NCBI GenBank assembly: GCA_028710275.1
Contig: JAQTUL010000001.1
Location: 921-64,920, forward strand
Origin: Candidatus Colwellbacteria bacterium
GTDB lineage: Bacteria > Patescibacteriota > Minisyncoccia > UBA6257 > Colwellbacteraceae
Direction: 5' to 3'
Length of the DNA stretch: 64,000 bases
Shown: positions 15,130 to 58,740 of the stretch, in pieces
How the letters are laid out: each line of letters opens with the position of its first letter
How positions within the stretch are numbered: position 1 is the first letter of the stretch
Translations under genes and position numbers: made by a program
The notes under the pieces: generated by a model
Told to the model about the DNA's origin: nothing
The model's input: only the letters and a program-made list of their open reading frames with translations
Databases searched by the model: none

Positions 15130-15193
15130 ATTGTTAGTAATCTGTACAACGAGAACAAATTATGGGTAACGAATTTGATAAGACAGAAGTTAA
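15130..15193 (+). pseudogene. Decayed 3'-end fragment of a third copy of the paralogous gene family (cf. 16820-16883)
   Basis: tagtaatctgtacaacgagaacaaattatgggtaacgaatttgataag[22-nt deletion]acagaagttaa aligns to the last codons of 15906..16883. Confidence 0.45.
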
Positions 15194-15905
15194 AAGATTG
15201 TTTTCGGAGATCACAACCATTTCCGAAACTGGAAAGTTTTTCGGTGGAGAGGTCGCCTCTCTCACAAATATTGAGAGAGTTTGATATACTTTTTTCAATT
15301 TCAAATAGTTTTAGAAACGGGATTCTCTCTGAACTCCGAAAGTCATAATCCGAAAAGAATGCGTGATAGAGTATAAATCGGAGTTTTGACTTTCAGAGTT
15401 TATCTCTGATCTCCGAAATATGCGATTTCGGAAAATCGTATTACATAGTATGTAATAATATTACAATAAATTACATACTATGTAATACGATTGCGATATA
15501 TGTAATTTATTGTAATACGATTGCAAGTTGTTGCAACCATACGATTGATATGCTGTAAACCGTAATTGACAATTCGGAGTTTTTCAGAGATCACACCCAT
15601 TTCCGAAACCAGAAAGTTTTTCGGCGGAGAGGTCGCCTCTCTCTCAAATATTGAGAGAGTTTGATATACTTTTTTCAATTTCAAATAGTTTTAGAAAAGG
15701 GGATTCCCTCTGAACTCCGAAAGTCATAACTCAAATTTATACAGTAACAGAGATTATTTTCAACTTATGACTTTCGGAGTGTTTTTTGGATCTCTGAAAG
15801 TCTGATTTTCGGAAAATAAGATGACGATTTATTGTAATACAATTACATCAGATGACGATTTATTGTAATACAATGTTAAACGATTACAATAATATGTAAT
15901 CCCAA
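15194..15905. repeat. Palindrome-rich non-coding region holding two ~150-bp direct repeats (~15199-15348 and ~15572-15735), (t)gtaatac(g)att repeats and nested hairpins. Homologous in inverted orientation to 58419-58740
   Basis: Contains palindromes gagaggtcgcctctc and ctctc(t)caaatattgagagag, hairpin ctccgaaagtcataa...ttatgactttcggag, and attacatactatg/catagtatgtaat inverted repeats. Confidence 0.65.
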
Positions 15906-16883
15906 ATGTTTACTTGTGAATACTGCGGTAAAGAGTTGACAACCAAATCGGTTCTTCGAAATCATCAAGAAAAGGCAAAGTATTGTCTAGAAAAACAAAA
16001 TAAGACTATTCGTCACGAAATCAAATGTAGTTTTTGCAACAAAGAATTTAGCGCAAAAAACAGAAAAGAAACACACGAGGCTAAATGCCCACATCGAATA
16101 GAGAAGGAGAGATTGGAATTACTTGTATTAAAAGAGATTGATACCGACCATAAATCTCTCCGTGAAGATTATAAAACTCTTGAAACAACCCATAAAACTT
16201 TGTCAGATAACTATAAAACTTTGTCAGATAACTATAAAACTCTTGATACCAAACATAATTCTCTATCTGAAGACAATAAAACTCTTAGTACAAAAATCGC
16301 CTCTCTTCTAGAAGAGAATATCTCTCTCAAACTTGAAAAACAGAGAGCAGACATATACTCTGAGTTATACAACAAAGAACAAATATTCGTTCACGAACAG
16401 AGTAAGAGATTGGTAGAGAAGTCAGGTGTTACCACAACAAACATCAAAGCAAAGAATATAACTATGAACGCTCTTAATCTCTCTCAAGAACGACTAGAAT
16501 CGATTAAAGATACCTACACTATAAAACATTATGAACGAGGTGGAATAGGCCAAGCTGATTGGGTGGTTGATAATGTACTCAGAGATGAATCGGGAAACCT
16601 TATTTACAAATGTACAGATAAAAACCGGAAGAATTTCATTTACCACGACAATAAAGGAGATGTAGTAACAGACATACAGGCTAAGAAACTAAAAGAAGCC
16701 ATACTTCCTATTATGAGTACAAAACTGAAGGAGTTCAAGAAGATCAAATGTGCTGAACTCGCTGAACAAAGCGACGATGAGAGTGAATTGTTAGAACAGT
16801 ATAGTAATCTATACAACGAGAATAAATCCATGGGTAACGAATTTGATAAGAGACTAGTTGAGAAGACATATGACAGAAGTTAA
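15906..16883 (+). CDS. Paralog A: C2H2-like zinc-finger plus coiled-coil (YKTLSDN heptad-like repeats) protein
   Basis: MFTCEYCGKELTTKSVLRNHQEKAKYC...CSFCNKEFSAKNRKETHEAKCPH. About 75% identical to 57537..58418 on the opposite strand. Confidence 0.55.
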   Translation: MFTCEYCGKELTTKSVLRNHQEKAKYCLEKQNKTIRHEIKCSFCNKEFSAKNRKETHEAKCPHRIEKERLELLVLKEIDTDHKSLREDYKTLETTHKTLSDNYKTLSDNYKTLDTKHNSLSEDNKTLSTKIASLLEENISLKLEKQRADIYSELYNKEQIFVHEQSKRLVEKSGVTTTNIKAKNITMNALNLSQERLESIKDTYTIKHYERGGIGQADWVVDNVLRDESGNLIYKCTDKNRKNFIYHDNKGDVVTDIQAKKLKEAILPIMSTKLKEFKKIKCAELAEQSDDESELLEQYSNLYNENKSMGNEFDKRLVEKTYDRS

Positions 16884-17034
16884 ATTCATAGTATTATGAC
16901 TATTCATGAGCATTTATGTTAATAGGTCATTTGAAATAATGACTACAATAAAGATGTTTATGTATGAGTAAAATTTAACAAAGTCTGATGAGAAGTTAAA
17001 GTGATACGATTAGTTAATATCTCTATATTAACTA

Positions 17035-57000: not shown

Positions 57001-57414
57001 CTTACCCGATGTACATTTAAAGGCTAGCTCCTGTACGAAATTTCTTTTCAGCGGAGGTCCTTTCATAAGACACAATGTTGGTTTCAAAGACGGATTGATT
57101 TTACGAGACTCTTCGGCTATGGTAATTGCTGTACAAGTTTTCCCACTACCGAGTCCGTCAAATAAGAGTATTTCATCATTTAACGTGTTAGGTGAGAGAA
57201 ATCGTGCGCTGGTAAGTTGATTCTTCAGAGGCATACCTGGCTTGTCCGGTTTTTTTTCCGAAGGTCCTAATTTGTTCGTGTAGAACTCCTTCTTTCGGTA
57301 AAATGAACTTTCTGGTTCATCGTCGTATATGTTAAACAGGTCCTCCTCATATTTTTTGCCAAAGTGTGTATATCCCGGGAGAAAATCTTCCAGCTTGAGT
57401 TGTAGATCACCCAT
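54076..57414 (-). CDS. D6/D11-type DExH helicase (poxvirus early transcription factor small-subunit-like, NCLDV core gene)
   Basis: Walker A LFDGLGSGKTCTAI. Motif II VIIIDEVHNIR. Motif III LLSATPM. Helicase C QIHIQTPHWNNPETEQAIGRGIR. Acidic insert. Confidence 0.8.
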   Translation of the reverse strand: MGDLQLKLEDFLPGYTHFGKKYEEDLFNIYDDEPESSFYRKKEFYTNKLGPSEKKPDKPGMPLKNQLTSARFLSPNTLNDEILLFDGLGSGKTCTAITIAEESRKINPSLKPTLCLMKGPPLKRNFVQELAFKCTSGKFIPDNYDNLTKGEKILRMNRLINKEYDIQTFETFAERVSKYSEKYINKVYSNRVIIIDEVHNIRIQPKKKKGKTSVNIYDSIHRFLHNIDNRKIVLLSATPMRDRPEEFGSVMNLILPEDKQLPTGKEFMKKFFSDDKENNTLENVHELKEAIRGRVGYIRSMEGGVTKVFKGELYGKMEKIKIYPSEMSDFQTKAYVTAYNKDTGDKEGDVDDIEEVEDETKSQGLYSKSRQASLFVFPDGSSGGSSSGKTKDGGKKESTGFGEYFNEVGSEYIMSKDLRNELTSNGKATPYQIIKNISKYSSIYASTIKEILDHPNENIFVYNKYVQGSGGILFAELLKLVGFERTRGHIDMDRDDEYDVSDDEKSDSDMSDIEEETDEDIDDDEPKPPKIDKKTMKKYKKSEDVEIPKKTKKKLDSRKKPRFSLITGETVSAAEIDRVVDKVFNDPRNRYGQYIQVIIGSQVIGEGKSLRNVRQIHIQTPHWNNPETEQAIGRGIRAFSHEDLKPDERSVKIFRHASIPNRGVESINYIMYKTSEDKDFKMKQIERVCKEEAVNCALNWERNNLPTDKDGSKECDYMKCKYTCSHISKKTIANPDLIDDTYNLFYAESEIESITNIIKQMFRKKFAYDLGEMLLEFSETSTMVIVRALKKIIDKSILIINKYGMPSYMREDHNLYFLVDDITLPDSFLLARYAEHPNVKTYYNFEDMIKLAQYRYIVEDKVYLIENYTEADDKKVIIDQIVSLVPSLQELFIEMSVVGNKLEKKTGEEIRTIIVDHYKNYIIDVSNKTVSTLLHDTEGRLRCLPTKGKSMDDWVECDDKVSEEIEDVKIEEKGTLELNPYGYYGRIIKDPKKKFKFQIMKVEKDKTDKRKRWRGPICREMVPKERIIDIINDLNKKSLNIKPPIEVVMKDRNKFIDEIIKRGSEFKKKTLKEMTDDRLKNVYYWQVKAGKKDMCDAMEDWFKEKKLMEYEK

Positions 57415-57536
57415 TATTGATATATAGAAAGATTATTTTAAATTTGGATGTTTGAATTCGTTTATTCAAAACGAGTAATGTAAATCGGAACTACTTTACA
57501 AACCTACCGAAACAAATCCATTCATGTTCTTATACT

Positions 57537-58418
57537 CTAATTTCTCTCGTATGTCTTTTCAACCAGTCGTTTATCAAACTCATTTCCCATCTCTTTGTTC
57601 TCTTTGTATAGATTACTATACTGTTCCAATAATTCACTCTCATCATCACTTTGTTCAGCGAGTTCCGAACACTTGATCTTCTTGAACTCCTTCAATTTAG
57701 TATTCATAATAGGAAGTATAGCCTCCTTTAGTTTCTTAGCCTGTATGTCTGTCACAACATTTCCTTTATCGTCGTGGTAAATGAAATTCTTCCGGTTTTT
57801 GTCAGTACATTTGTAGATAAGAGTTCCCGATTCATCTCTGATTACATTATCTACTACCCAATCGGCCTGACCAATTCCTCCTCGTTCATAGTGTTTAAGA
57901 GTATATGTATCCTTTATAGACTCTAGTCGTTCTTGGGAGAGATTAAGAGCGTTCATAGTTATATTCTTCGCTTTGATGTTAGTTGTTGTGGTAACACCTG
58001 ACTTCTCTACCAATCTCTTACTCTGCTCGTGAGCAAATATATGTTCTTTGTTGTATAACTCAGAGTAGATTTCGGCTCTCTGTTTTTCCATCTCTATTTT
58101 GAGAGATTGAATATCTTCCAGAAGAGATGTATTTTTTGTTTCAAGAGTTTTATAGTCTTCAGAGAGAGAATTATATTTCGGTTCAAGTACTTTTAACATG
58201 AGTAATTCAGACCTTTCATTCTCAATTCTCACCGAGCATTTATTCTCATGAGTTTCTTTTCTCGCTTTTGTACTACAACCTTTATTACAGAAACTACATA
58301 CGATTTCGTCATAGGAAATTTTGTTCTGTTTTTCCAAACAATATTTTGCGCGTTCTTGGTGAGTTCGGAGAACAGTTTTTGTCGATAATTCTTTACCGCA
58401 ATATTCACAAGTAAACAT
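57537..58418 (-). CDS. Paralog B of 15906..16883 (C2H2-like zinc-finger plus coiled-coil protein), inverted orientation
   Basis: MFTCEYCGKELSTKTVLRTHQERAKYC. The C-terminal 200 aa are nearly identical to paralog A. Confidence 0.55.
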   Translation of the reverse strand: MFTCEYCGKELSTKTVLRTHQERAKYCLEKQNKISYDEIVCSFCNKGCSTKARKETHENKCSVRIENERSELLMLKVLEPKYNSLSEDYKTLETKNTSLLEDIQSLKIEMEKQRAEIYSELYNKEHIFAHEQSKRLVEKSGVTTTTNIKAKNITMNALNLSQERLESIKDTYTLKHYERGGIGQADWVVDNVIRDESGTLIYKCTDKNRKNFIYHDDKGNVVTDIQAKKLKEAILPIMNTKLKEFKKIKCSELAEQSDDESELLEQYSNLYKENKEMGNEFDKRLVEKTYERN

Positions 58419-58740
58419 GGTTTTACACTATATAACATTATATGTGATTGTTTAACATATTATTACATCGTATGTAATTTATTGTAATATTATTACGTGC
58501 AATGTTATATGATTTTCGGAAAATTTGACTTTCGGAGATCCAAAAACACTCCGAAAGTCATAAGTTAAAAATAATCTCTGTTACTGTATAAATTTGAGTT
58601 ATGACTTTCGGAGTTCAGAGAGAAATCCCGTTTCTAAAACTAATTGGATTAGAAAAAAGTATATCAAACTCTCTCAATATTTGTGAGAGAGGCGACCTCT
58701 CCACCGAAAAACTATTAGAACTGATTTTTGATTCGTCCGA
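58419..58740. repeat. Inverted copy of the palindrome-rich upstream module (homolog of ~15572-15905)
   Basis: Contains ttatgactttcggag...ctccgaaagtcataa, ctctctcaatatttgtgagag, and gagaggcgacctctcc in reverse orientation. Confidence 0.65.

What the first reader, a model, noticed from the sequence alone, without database searches (positions are those of the whole stretch)
15130..58740. Inverted paralogous modules (palindrome-rich repeat plus C2H2-like gene) bracketing ~41 kb; possible invertible segment or replication/regulatory landmark
The module at 15194-16883 (repeat region plus gene A on +) is mirrored at 57537-58740 (gene B on - plus the same upstream repeat). The shared upstream part (~330 bp) is packed with perfect palindromes: gagaggtcgcctctc, ctctctcaaatattgagagag, and a 15-bp-stem hairpin ctccgaaagtcataa/ttatgactttcggag. 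It also carries gtaatacgatt-type repeats. Copy A additionally has an internal ~150-bp tandem duplication and, at 15130-15193, the decayed 3' end of a third gene copy. Inverted repeats of >1 kb separated by 41 kb can mediate flip-flop inversion by homologous recombination. The palindrome clusters look like binding sites, perhaps for the adjacent zinc-finger protein (autoregulation), or an origin-like element.
Basis: seen in the sequence. Interest (0 to 1): 0.65.

Follow-up and report, generated by a model that had tools for sequence, protein, structure and literature searches.

The report
Repeated zinc-finger gene with conserved leader
The two mirrored modules are real, but they are just two of at least 13 scattered copies of a giant-virus gene family that always travels with its own conserved, palindrome-rich stretch of non-coding DNA in front of it, so they do not mark a special invertible 41-kb segment.

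Summary
Gene A (15906-16883, +) and gene B (57537-58418, -) are inverted paralogues. They share a ~300-bp upstream element, duplicated in tandem before A, and a decayed third gene end lies at ~15120-15193.

The window is from an uncultured giant virus, deposited as a 'Candidatus Colwellbacteria' MAG. A and B are 2 of 13 close paralogues on six contigs of that MAG, about one per 30 kb. Each protein has two C2HC/C2H2-like fingers, a long coiled coil and an unassigned, highly conserved C-terminal domain.

The upstream element accompanies 10 of 12 family genes examined, from three sources, and occurs nowhere else in about 137 kb searched. Between viruses it is 62-75% identical where four-fold degenerate sites of the adjacent gene are only 28-47% identical, so it is under selection.

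Related copies lie in tandem, direct and inverted layouts. The A/B inversion is therefore one layout among several, and nothing supports a dedicated invertible segment.

The element is most likely a family-specific cis-regulatory DNA cassette of dyad-symmetric protein-binding sites. That function is inferred, not shown. Rivals are an hr-like origin or enhancer, an RNA leader or 3'-end hairpins, and a selfish cassette.

The parts
15120..15193 (+). Decayed 3' end of a third family gene copy (pseudogene remnant), lying directly before element copy A1
   Evidence: It aligns to the last ~100 nt of genes A and B with a 10-nt deletion and a 1-nt frameshift.
15194..15565 (+). Orphan upstream element copy A1, with no gene behind it. 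It contains: TTTCGGAGATCA/TGATCTCCGAAA bracket (15202-15213 / 15407-15418); GGAGAGGTCGCCTCTC (15246-15261); palindrome 2 (15259-15279, imperfect); a conserved block; a degenerate hairpin 3 (15332-15348 / 15384-15400); and a perfect 23-bp-arm palindrome (15434-15456 / 15470-15492).
   Evidence: nhmmer with the element profile gives E = 1.9e-46.
15566..15905 (+). Upstream element copy A2, directly before gene A. It contains: bracket 15582-15592 / 15789-15799; GGAGAGGTCGCCTCTC 15626-15641; perfect palindrome 2 at 15639-15659; the conserved block ACTTTTTTCAATTTCAAATAGTTTTAGAAAAGGGG; hairpin 3 at 15714-15729 / 15765-15780 (16-bp perfect stem, 35-nt loop); TCCGAAA-type motifs; and a 31-bp direct repeat with TGTAAT/ATTACA palindromes before the ATG.
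   Evidence: nhmmer gives E = 2.6e-47.
15906..16883 (+). Gene A, 325 aa. It has two C2HC/C2H2-like fingers (residues 4-27 and 41-61), a single ~110-residue helix (62-171) that includes a 21-bp x 2.4 repeat, and the conserved C-terminal domain (~172-325).
57537..58418 (-). Gene B, 293 aa. It has the same architecture as gene A and is A's closest paralogue.
58419..58713 (-). Upstream element of gene B. It contains GGAGAGGTCGCCTCTC (58687-58702), palindrome 2 (~58669-58691), hairpin 3 (58593-58614 / 58548-58569) and an AT-rich proximal part. It is a mosaic: the hairpin 3 region resembles A2, while the proximal part resembles A1 (58461-58522 vs 15426-15487, 89%).
   Evidence: nhmmer gives E = 3.5e-47.

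Best explanation
What it is (shown). A and B are the two most similar members of a lineage-specific, dispersed multigene family of an uncultured giant virus (Nucleocytoviricota). The unit that duplicates is [~300-bp non-coding element + gene]. It has spread by tandem duplication followed by dispersal and decay. The traces in this window are a gene remnant, an orphan element and the tandem element copies A1/A2. Exchange between copies has also occurred: B's element is a mosaic of A1-like and A2-like parts. The inverted, convergent A/B layout 41 kb apart is a by-product of that dispersal.

How the element works (inferred). The element is most likely a family-specific cis-regulatory cassette that acts as DNA.
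- It holds invariant sequence motifs: CTCCGAAAGTCA(T/A)AA; TCTC(A/T)CAAAnnTTTGnGAGAG; AAATAGTTnnAGAAAA.
- It holds many TTCGGAG/CTCCGAA copies in opposed orientation. These look like dyad-symmetric binding sites for a dimeric protein. The family's own proteins are plausible candidates, because an N-terminal finger pair followed by a long coiled coil is the geometry expected for binding palindromes.
- Between this block and the ATG lies an AT-rich stretch of copy-specific short tandem or inverted repeats, which probably holds the core promoter.
- Where the upstream gene points the same way, the palindromes may also serve as Mimivirus-type hairpin 3'-end signals.
For: Family and dispersal.
- There are 13 close paralogues with PHG66_ locus tags on six contigs, 4 of them on the 152.6-kb contig of this window, and 9 more in JGI sample 3300050206.
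- An exhaustive profile search finds 960 cluster representatives at E <= 1e-10.

The element travels with the gene.
- It lies upstream of 10 of 12 family genes examined, from three sources: this window, JGI 3300050206 and ENA GROS21.
- The element profile hits nothing else in the 64-kb window or in ~73 kb of related loci.

Selection.
- Core identity is 62-75% between viruses and 93% between A and B. Four-fold degenerate site identity in the adjacent genes is 28-47% and 65% respectively.
- The shuffled-alignment baseline is 0.55 +/- 0.04.

DNA-motif rather than RNA-fold behaviour.
- The 5' arm of hairpin 3 is invariant even in the 4 copies that have lost the 3' arm.
- RNAalifold keeps only hairpin 2, with a covariation term near zero.
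- The element is present in 5 of 11 copies where the upstream gene is divergent, so it is not simply that gene's terminator.

Protein geometry. Two fingers are followed by a confident 110-residue helix.

History. Remnant, A1/A2 duplication, mosaic B.
Against: No experiment or transcript map exists. The transcription start site is unknown, so the element could be transcribed as a leader.

Binding by the family's own protein is pure inference. The finger helices are similar in A, B and P0005, yet their promoter-proximal repeats differ. That argues against a simple 'each paralogue binds its own repeats' model.

Two family genes lack the element. L002, whose product P0005 is among A's closest relatives in the related JGI virus, has only a 55-bp intergenic region. 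The distant L009 has only an analogous architecture. The element is therefore not essential for expression.

L006 and L008 reach only 62% global identity, which is within the range of the shuffled control. Their homology rests on local blocks and on nhmmer E-values of 1e-25 and 8e-29.

The C-terminal domain has no assignable function: no Pfam, PHROG or PDB match, and a poor AlphaFold model.
Confidence: 0.45

Rival explanations
1. Invertible segment. Homologous recombination between the inverted A and B modules flips the 41-kb segment, giving two genome isomers.
For: About 1.2 kb of inverted homology is present, with exact matches of 62, 53 and 43 bp. The mosaic structure of B's element shows that sequence has been exchanged among copies. 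Large DNA viruses recombine actively (general knowledge).
Against: The pair is not special. There are 13 close paralogues, and the related virus holds direct, tandem and inverted layouts. Frequent recombination between direct copies would delete essential genes. Identity is only 74-94%. Gene-strand bias and GC skew are the same inside and outside the segment. No recombinase gene is adjacent. No reads were available to test for isomers.
Confidence: 0.08
2. hr-like element. The palindrome-rich elements are dispersed origins of replication and/or enhancers, analogous to baculovirus homologous regions. The adjacent repeated gene would play a bro-like or IE-1-like binding role.
For: The elements are dispersed about every 30 kb on the contigs that carry them. 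They combine palindromes with direct repeats and AT-rich sequence. They lie next to a repeated ORF family with a DNA-binding module. Baculovirus hrs are palindrome-containing repeats that act as enhancers, origins and recombination sites, and bro genes mark rearrangement regions (PMC3545888).
Against: Each locus holds one element unit, not a tandem array of palindrome-containing repeats. The element is always oriented and positioned as the 5' flank of the gene. Apart from A1 it never stands alone. There is no replication data. Two family genes lack it.
Confidence: 0.15
3. RNA-level function. The element is transcribed and acts either as a structured 5' leader or small RNA, or as Mimivirus-type 'hairpin rule' 3'-end or insulator signals inherited from a tandem-array ancestor.
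For: Every copy folds far better than shuffles, with z from -3.9 to -9.5. This genome shows a hairpin-rule-like pattern: perfect stems of 9 bp or more within 90 nt after the stop in 20 of 62 genes, against 5 of 135 coding windows and 4 of 62 shuffles. Palindromic termination signals are established for Mimivirus (PMC3058096, citing Byrne et al. 2009). In tandem and co-directional contexts the element begins within a few bases of the upstream stop codon. Compensatory changes occur in hairpin 2 (L006), in hairpin 3 (L008) and in the outer bracket (A1 vs A2).
Against: The consensus fold is weak, at -11.7 kcal/mol with a covariation term near zero. The 3' arm of hairpin 3 is lost in 4 of 11 copies while the 5' arm stays invariant. 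Five of 11 copies follow a divergent gene that needs no terminator there. Generic hairpin-rule signals are not conserved in sequence, but this element is. There is no Rfam match beyond chance miRNA-like hairpin hits. No strand is consistently preferred for folding: 9 of 12 elements fold slightly better on the antisense strand, a difference I attribute to base composition.
Confidence: 0.2
4. Selfish mobile cassette. The element plus gene forms a free-standing homing-endonuclease-like or otherwise mobile gene that copies itself into new intergenic sites. The element would be its self-contained expression and insulation unit.
For: The N-terminal finger plus coiled-coil module recurs in giant-virus proteins fused to KilA-N + T5orf172/MUG113 domains. 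Foldseek also matches it to proteins annotated as GIY-YIG or HNH nucleases. Paralogue P0007 has an extra N-terminal extension that looks PD-(D/E)xK-like by eye. The family is multi-copy, its neighbours differ at every locus, and decayed remnants exist.
Against: No nuclease or recombinase domain is detectable in A or B. No terminal inverted repeats or target-site duplications bound the whole module (and by eye). No empty or filled orthologous sites could be compared. This reading is compatible with the best explanation rather than exclusive of it.
Confidence: 0.12

Closest known systems
Baculovirus bro multigene family together with homologous regions (hrs)
   Same: Both involve a repeated ORF family with a DNA-binding module, scattered around a large DNA virus genome. 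Both are associated with dispersed, AT-rich, palindrome-containing non-coding repeats, and both mark sites of rearrangement and exchange (PMC3545888).
   Different: There is no Bro-N or KilA-N domain in A or B. Here the element is a single oriented unit fixed to the 5' side of each gene, not an independent tandem array. Enhancer or origin activity is unknown. No sequence relationship to hrs was seen.
Giant-virus C2H2 finger + coiled-coil proteins fused to KilA-N/T5orf172, GIY-YIG or HNH domains
   Same: They share a homologous N-terminal module: two fingers of the CEFCxKxFxxKxxLxxHQxxAKYC type followed by a coiled coil. hhalign gives 98.6% probability. Foldseek matches occur in Klosneuvirinae-like and Marseillevirus-like MAG proteins.
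   Different: A and B carry a different C-terminal domain of ~150 residues that matches no Pfam, PHROG or PDB family. That domain also occurs without fingers at window 34335-35126.
Mimivirus 'hairpin rule' palindromic 3'-end signals
   Same: Both are AT-rich intergenic palindromes. This genome shows the same enrichment downstream of stop codons (PMC3058096).
   Different: Hairpin-rule signals are generic and not conserved in sequence. This element is a ~200-250-bp block conserved in sequence, tied to one gene family, and also present where no co-directional gene ends.
Paralogous gene expansions of giant and pox-like viruses by tandem duplication and dispersal ('genomic accordion', multigene families)
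   Same: Shared features are tandem copies, decayed remnants, dispersal, and a conserved core with a variable N-terminus. The comparison with the accordion concept rests on general knowledge.
   Different: What is unusual here is that a long non-coding 5' element is co-duplicated and kept under stronger constraint than synonymous sites.

Membership tests
Invertible DNA segment (flip-flop between inverted repeats) | Inverted repeats flank the segment | tested here: met
   Inverted similarity of 74-96% runs over ~1.2 kb at 15235-16882 vs 57538-58713.
Invertible DNA segment (flip-flop between inverted repeats) | Both orientations exist in the population | not testable with these tools
   Only one assembled contig is available. 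There are no reads.
Invertible DNA segment (flip-flop between inverted repeats) | The repeats are a dedicated pair (unique, near-identical), or a site-specific recombinase gene is adjacent | tested here: not met
   There are 13 close paralogues in the assembly. The longest exact match is 62 bp. The neighbours are an XRN exonuclease, an SNF2 helicase and small ORFs, with no recombinase.
Baculovirus-type homologous regions (hr) | Several non-coding copies dispersed in AT-rich intergenic DNA | tested here: met
   There are three copies in the window. Eight more lie at seven loci of two related viruses.
Baculovirus-type homologous regions (hr) | Each hr is a tandem array of direct repeats, each with an imperfect palindrome core | tested here: not met
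   Each gene has one composite unit. Only A1/A2 is a two-unit tandem.
Baculovirus-type homologous regions (hr) | Enhancer and/or origin activity | not testable with these tools
   This needs transient replication or reporter assays.
Mimivirus hairpin-rule 3'-end signal | A palindrome able to form a hairpin lies just downstream of a gene's stop codon on the transcribed strand | tested here: inconclusive
   The feature is enriched genome-wide: 20 of 62 genes, against 4 of 62 shuffles. The element follows a co-directional gene in 6 of 11 copies but a divergent gene in 5 of 11.
C2H2 zinc finger (Pfam PF00096 / PF13894) | Match above the Pfam gathering score, with a C-x2-C-x12-H-x3-5-H ligand pattern | tested here: inconclusive
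   A scores 25.1 and 20.6 bits, below the cut-offs of 27 and 25.2. The ligand pattern is C-x2-C-x12-H-x6-C and C-x2-C-x12-H-x3-C, which is C2HC-like. Some relatives pass the cut-off.
BRO / KilA-N-T5orf172 family | A KilA-N (or Bro-N) DNA-binding domain | tested here: not met
   There is no Pfam hit in A or B. Only the N-terminal finger and coiled-coil module is shared with KilA-N/T5orf172 proteins.
Homing endonuclease gene (GIY-YIG, HNH, LAGLIDADG, PD-(D/E)xK) | A recognisable nuclease domain | tested here: not met
   No Pfam or PDB match was found. The only PHROG hit is a weak one (E = 0.0027) to an HNH family, and it lies over the finger region. The model of the C-terminal domain is too poor for fold search, with pLDDT 54.
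MITE / DNA transposon | Terminal inverted repeats and target-site duplication bounding the mobile unit, with copies independent of any gene | tested here: not met
   An 11-12-bp inverted repeat brackets the element core. No TIR or TSD bounds the element-plus-gene module. No copy occurs away from a family gene except A1, which sits in a decayed tandem array.
Described RNA family (Rfam 15) | Match at the gathering score | tested here: not met
   Only sub-threshold miRNA-like hairpin hits were found, at 20-27 bits against gathering scores of 47-100.

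The most novel reading that the evidence does not exclude
The conserved palindromic element and its adjacent finger/coiled-coil gene form a self-contained protein-plus-site system that a giant virus has spread at about 30-kb intervals. In this reading the elements are dispersed origin, enhancer or genome-organising sites, a giant-virus counterpart of baculovirus hrs. 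Each would be bound at its dyad-symmetric motifs by dimers of the family's own proteins. No cis-acting replication or architectural element of this kind has been defined in Nucleocytoviricota outside poxvirus telomeres.
Probability: 0.12. Interest if true: 0.75.

Novelty: new variant of a known kind. Interest (0 to 1): 0.4.

Why it matters
Beyond short promoter motifs and generic terminator hairpins, almost no conserved non-coding elements are known in giant viruses. Here a block of ~200-250 bp is kept more constant than the synonymous sites of its own gene. It recurs in front of a family with at least 13 copies, across at least three uncultured viruses.

This gives a concrete candidate for cis-regulatory, or possibly replication or architectural, DNA in these genomes. 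The obvious candidate binding protein is encoded next door, so the idea can be tested directly.

The result also gives two cautions. A single pair of inverted paralogues should not be read as an inversion switch before the family's copy number is known. And this 'Colwellbacteria' MAG is a giant-virus bin.

Tried and rejected
- Fetching the other paralogues of the same MAG failed. The NCBI proteins are not on record in the contig index.
- Searches found nothing in the genome, viral and metagenome collections, both with the family profile and with the element DNA pattern. All comparative DNA therefore comes from nine loci fetched by exact protein look-up.
- No function could be assigned to the C-terminal domain. 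Pfam, PHROGs and PDB gave nothing. AlphaFold gave pLDDT 54 for the domain alone, so I ran no fold search on it. Foldseek on the full model recovered only the finger and coiled-coil relatives.
- The curved-DNA idea for the ~10-bp promoter-proximal repeats is not supported. A-tract phasing was significant in only 3 of 12 copies.
- The idea that each paralogue's fingers match its own repeats is not supported. The finger helices of A, B and P0005 are nearly the same, but their repeats differ.
- A conserved RNA fold is not supported. RNAalifold on 11 cores and on 9 full elements kept only hairpin 2, with no covariation signal. Comparing the folding of the two strands gave no signal that I would separate from base composition.
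- A small ORF inside the element is unlikely. Short ORFs exist, but 1-nt indels between copies break every frame.
- The genome's commonest upstream octamer, AAAAGTGA(T), found upstream of 9 of 62 genes and possibly the general promoter, was not seen in the module sequences on reading them.
- Named cultured relatives could not be found. The best hits of the neighbouring SNF2 helicase are all unnamed metagenomic proteins.
- Synteny between the window and the related loci gave no orthologous flank to compare.

Full report
**1. The observation**

- Gene A (15906-16883, +, 325 aa) and gene B (57537-58418, -, 293 aa) are paralogues. They are 75% identical by BLASTP and 84% identical over aligned residues.
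- The repeat finder reports inverted similarity across the coding regions: 452 nt at 87%, 106 nt at 93% and 294 nt at 74%.
- The upstream regions also match: 15615-15786 vs 58542-58713 at 94%, and 15235-15324 vs 58624-58713 at 96%.
- The named motifs are far above chance and occur only in the modules. GGAGAGGTCGCCTCTC occurs 3 times against 0.01 expected. CTCCGAAAGTCATAA occurs 7 times against 0.22 expected.
- The remnant of a third gene copy at ~15120-15193 aligns to the last ~100 nt of A and B, with a 10-nt deletion and a frameshift.

Three corrections apply.
- The duplication in front of A has a 380-bp period. It gives two whole element copies: A1 at 15194-15565, which has no gene behind it, and A2 at 15566-15905.
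- The two short palindromes have 3-nt spacers, and the second is perfect only in A2.
- A1 also holds a perfect 23-bp-arm palindrome at 15434-15456/15470-15492.

**2. Where the window comes from**

The gene content is that of a giant virus (Nucleocytoviricota). It includes:
- an XRN exonuclease;
- an SNF2 helicase, and a second SNF2/RING helicase interrupted by an intein;
- a chitin synthase and an asparagine synthase;
- a PCIF1-like protein and a TnpB/Fanzor-like protein;
- a kinesin-like protein, collagen-like repeats and EsV-1-7 cysteine motifs.

The exact proteins are deposited at NCBI as a MAG named 'Candidatus Colwellbacteria bacterium', with PHG66_ locus tags, on a contig of 152,625 bp. 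The best relatives of the SNF2 neighbour are all unnamed metagenomic proteins.

**3. A and B are two of many**

- The protein search returned 13 close paralogues with PHG66_ tags on six contigs. Four lie on the contig of this window: 00120 (= A), 00315 (= B), 00415 and 00635. That is about one copy per 30 kb of those contigs. A fourteenth, more distant member is PHG66_04650.
- Nine more copies come from JGI sample 3300050206, and others from ENA and Logan assemblies.
- An exhaustive profile search of 1.84 billion cluster representatives found 2881 at E <= 1e-3, 960 at E <= 1e-10 and 43 at E <= 1e-30. None of the ten checked carries a meaningful name.

The alignment shows the protein architecture:
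- two fingers, C-x2-C-x12-H-x6-C and C-x2-C-x12-H-x3-C;
- a variable coiled coil with tandem repeats, modelled as one confident helix over residues 62-171;
- a C-terminal domain of ~150 residues that is about 90% identical among paralogues of this MAG.

The fingers score just below the Pfam C2H2 cut-offs in A and B. The C-terminal domain matches nothing in Pfam, PHROGs or the PDB and models poorly. It occurs on its own, without fingers, in window ORF 34335-35126 (hhalign 98.5%).

The finger and coiled-coil module is homologous to the N-terminus of giant-virus proteins that continue with KilA-N and T5orf172/MUG113 domains. By Foldseek it also resembles C2H2 proteins of Klosneuvirinae-like and Marseillevirus-like MAGs, some of them annotated as GIY-YIG or HNH nucleases.

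**4. The upstream element belongs to the family and is under selection**

I fetched nine related loci by exact protein look-up.

*Distribution*
- The same element lies upstream of the family gene in L001, L003 (both tandem genes), L004, L005, L006 and L007, all from JGI, and in L008 from ENA GROS21.
- A profile built from 11 cores finds the three window copies and those eight, with E from 1e-25 to 1e-47. It finds nothing else in the 64-kb window or in about 73 kb of loci.
- Two genes lack it. L002 encodes P0005, one of A's closest relatives in the related JGI virus (60% identical), and has a 55-bp intergenic region. L009, a distant subfamily, has a different sequence with the same layout: hairpins, one TCCGAAA motif, and six 10-bp repeats before the ATG.

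*Anatomy, 5' to 3'*
- TTCGGAG-type repeats.
- A variable hairpin 1.
- Hairpin 2, TCTC(A/T)CAAAnnTTTGnGAGAG.
- A conserved block, ACTTTTTT..AAATAGTTnnAGAAAAGGGA.
- CTCCGAAAGTCA(T/A)AA, the 5' arm of hairpin 3.
- A ~35-nt loop and, in 7 of 11 copies, the matching 3' arm.
- CTCCGAA/TCCGAAA repeats in the opposite orientation. The core is therefore bracketed by an 11-12-bp inverted repeat. A G:C to A:T double change separates A1 from A2 in that bracket.
- An AT-rich stretch of copy-specific short tandem or inverted repeats. These have a period near 10 or 20 bp in 8 of 9 related genes. In the window copies they are TGTAAT/ATTACA palindromes.

TYCGGA/TCCGRA hexamers are about 14 times denser in the modules than in the rest of the window (per-copy counts).

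*Constraint*
- Between viruses the 190-bp core is 62-75% identical, while four-fold degenerate sites of the adjacent genes are 28-47% identical.
- For A vs B the figures are 93% vs 65%. For the tandem pair L003a/b they are 82% vs 37%.
- Random sequences aligned the same way give 0.55 +/- 0.04.

Gene conversion cannot explain the between-virus figures, so the element is under purifying selection.

**5. DNA motif or RNA fold?**

- Every element folds much better than shuffles, with z from -3.9 to -9.5. No strand is consistently preferred: 9 of 12 fold slightly better on the antisense strand, a difference I attribute to base composition.
- RNAalifold keeps only hairpin 2 in all copies. Compensatory changes there come from L006 alone. 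On nine full-length elements the consensus energy is -11.7 kcal/mol with a covariation term near zero.
- The 5' arm of hairpin 3 is invariant even in the four copies that have lost the 3' arm. That is the behaviour of a sequence motif, not of a stem.
- One-nucleotide indels between copies break every reading frame, so a small ORF is unlikely.
- Rfam gives only sub-threshold miRNA-like hairpin hits.
- The genome does show a Mimivirus-like hairpin pattern. Perfect stems of 9 bp or more occur within 90 nt after the stop codon in 20 of 62 genes, against 5 of 135 coding windows and 4 of 62 shuffles. Palindromic termination signals are established for Mimivirus (PMC3058096, citing Byrne et al. 2009).
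- Six of 11 elements follow a co-directional gene and start within a few bases of its stop codon. Five follow a divergent gene, where no terminator is needed.

I conclude that the conserved part acts mainly as DNA, as binding sites. It may have a secondary role as 3'-end hairpins in co-directional contexts.

**6. History of the locus**

- The remnant gene end, the orphan element A1 and then A2 with gene A are the remains of a tandem array. An intact tandem pair exists in L003.
- B's element is a mosaic. Its hairpin 3 and loop match A2, at 92-100% per 40-nt block. Its AT-rich proximal part matches A1, at 89%. Copies have therefore exchanged sequence.

**7. The inversion idea**

Homologous recombination between A and B is physically possible. 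The exact matches are 62, 53 and 43 bp. Nothing, however, singles out this pair.
- In the related virus, copies lie in tandem (L003a/b), in direct orientation 11 kb apart (L001 and L005, same strand of one contig), and in inverted-divergent orientation 14 kb apart (L006 vs L003). These layouts follow from the record coordinates.
- Gene-strand bias (mostly minus) and negative GC skew run unchanged across both boundaries.
- No recombinase gene is adjacent.

Without reads the existence of isomers cannot be tested. I rate frequent flip-flop as unlikely.

**8. Mechanism**

The mechanism I commit to, with its steps marked:
- *Shown:* this is a dispersed paralogue family whose duplicating unit includes a selected non-coding element.
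- *Inferred:* the element is a cis-regulatory cassette of dyad-symmetric sites, read by a dimeric protein.
- *Speculative:* that protein is a member of the family itself, because two N-terminal fingers followed by a parallel coiled coil suit palindromic sites.

A simple model of 'own fingers, own proximal repeats' is not supported. A, B and P0005 have near-identical finger helices but different repeats. Phased A-tract curvature is not supported either.

The rivals are an hr-like origin or enhancer, an RNA leader or terminator, and a selfish cassette. They are set out with their evidence in the structured fields.

**9. Comparison with what is known**

- The closest functional analogy is the baculovirus pairing of bro genes with homologous regions. 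There a repeated ORF family with a DNA-binding module is associated with dispersed palindromic repeats that act as enhancers, origins and recombination sites (PMC3545888).
- Membership fails. There is no KilA-N or Bro-N domain. There is a single oriented unit per gene, not an array. No activity data exist.
- By homology, the nearest relatives are giant-virus finger and coiled-coil proteins with other C-terminal domains.

**10. Verdict**

The headline interpretation, an invertible 41-kb segment or landmark, is not supported. The secondary suggestion, binding sites tied to the finger gene, remains the best reading.

The new point is the selected, family-specific non-coding element. I rate this a new variant of a known kind, with interest 0.4.

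Noticed in passing
whole window (contig of 152,625 bp, PHG66_ locus tags): The sequence is deposited as a 'Candidatus Colwellbacteria bacterium' MAG, but its gene content is that of a giant virus: XRN, two SNF2 helicases, chitin synthase, Asn synthase, PCIF1-like, kinesin-like and collagen-like genes, and EsV-1-7 motifs. The bin or its label is wrong.
   Followed up: partly
window 34335-35126 (-): This 263-aa ORF carries only the family's conserved C-terminal domain (hhalign 98.5%, E = 1.5e-15 against the distant-member profile). It has a different N-terminus and no upstream element. The domain is therefore an independent module.
   Followed up: partly
window 22062-23894 (-): This 610-aa ORF has a Cas12f1-like TNB domain, so it is TnpB/Fanzor-like. 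It is a transposon-associated nuclease gene lying inside the 41-kb segment.
   Followed up: no
window 48697-51576 (-): An SNF2/RING-finger helicase is interrupted by an intein with Hint and LAGLIDADG homing-endonuclease domains. The related locus L001 (7403-9304) has a homologue, and L004 has an intein in its DNA polymerase B.
   Followed up: no
window-wide; e.g. upstream of 17035: The octamer AAAAGTGA(T) is the most enriched word in the 120 nt upstream of ORFs (9 of 62). It is a candidate general (early?) promoter, reminiscent of Mimivirus AAAATTGA. I did not see it in the zinc-finger modules when reading them.
   Followed up: partly
window-wide, 3' flanks of ORFs: Perfect palindromes with stems of 9 bp or more lie within 90 nt downstream of 20 of 62 stop codons, against 4-6% in controls. 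This is a Mimivirus-like 'hairpin rule' signature in this uncultured virus.
   Followed up: partly
window 37796-38881, 39219-40321, 29686-33162, 9251-10069, 11859-13187: Several ORFs are built from long tandem repeats. Two neighbouring arrays of 72-bp units have ~11 copies each. A 1158-aa ORF contains 75/90-bp units. A collagen-like ORF has 33-bp repeats. The BRCT/EsV-1-7 protein contains 183-bp repeats.
   Followed up: no
paralogue P0007 (PHG66_04565, another contig): One family member has a ~120-residue N-terminal extension with a D...E-x-K pattern that looks like a PD-(D/E)xK nuclease by eye. Its only database match is a weak hit to a PHROG of unknown function.
   Followed up: no
L009 2897-2961 and the equivalent sites in L002, L003, L005, L006, L007, L008: Copy-specific tandem repeats of period ~10 or 20 bp, with 3-6.5 copies, lie 30-110 bp before the ATG of nearly every family gene. 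They differ in sequence from copy to copy. In these loci no comparable non-coding array of period 10-11 bp with about 3 or more copies occurs away from a family gene's upstream region. Their role is unexplained, and A-tract phasing does not account for them.
   Followed up: partly
8-40 nt before the ATG in winA2, winB, L001, L003a, L004, L005, L006: A (T)GTTAAAC-like word recurs close to the start codon of many family genes and may be the family's core promoter or start site. This was seen by eye only.
   Followed up: no
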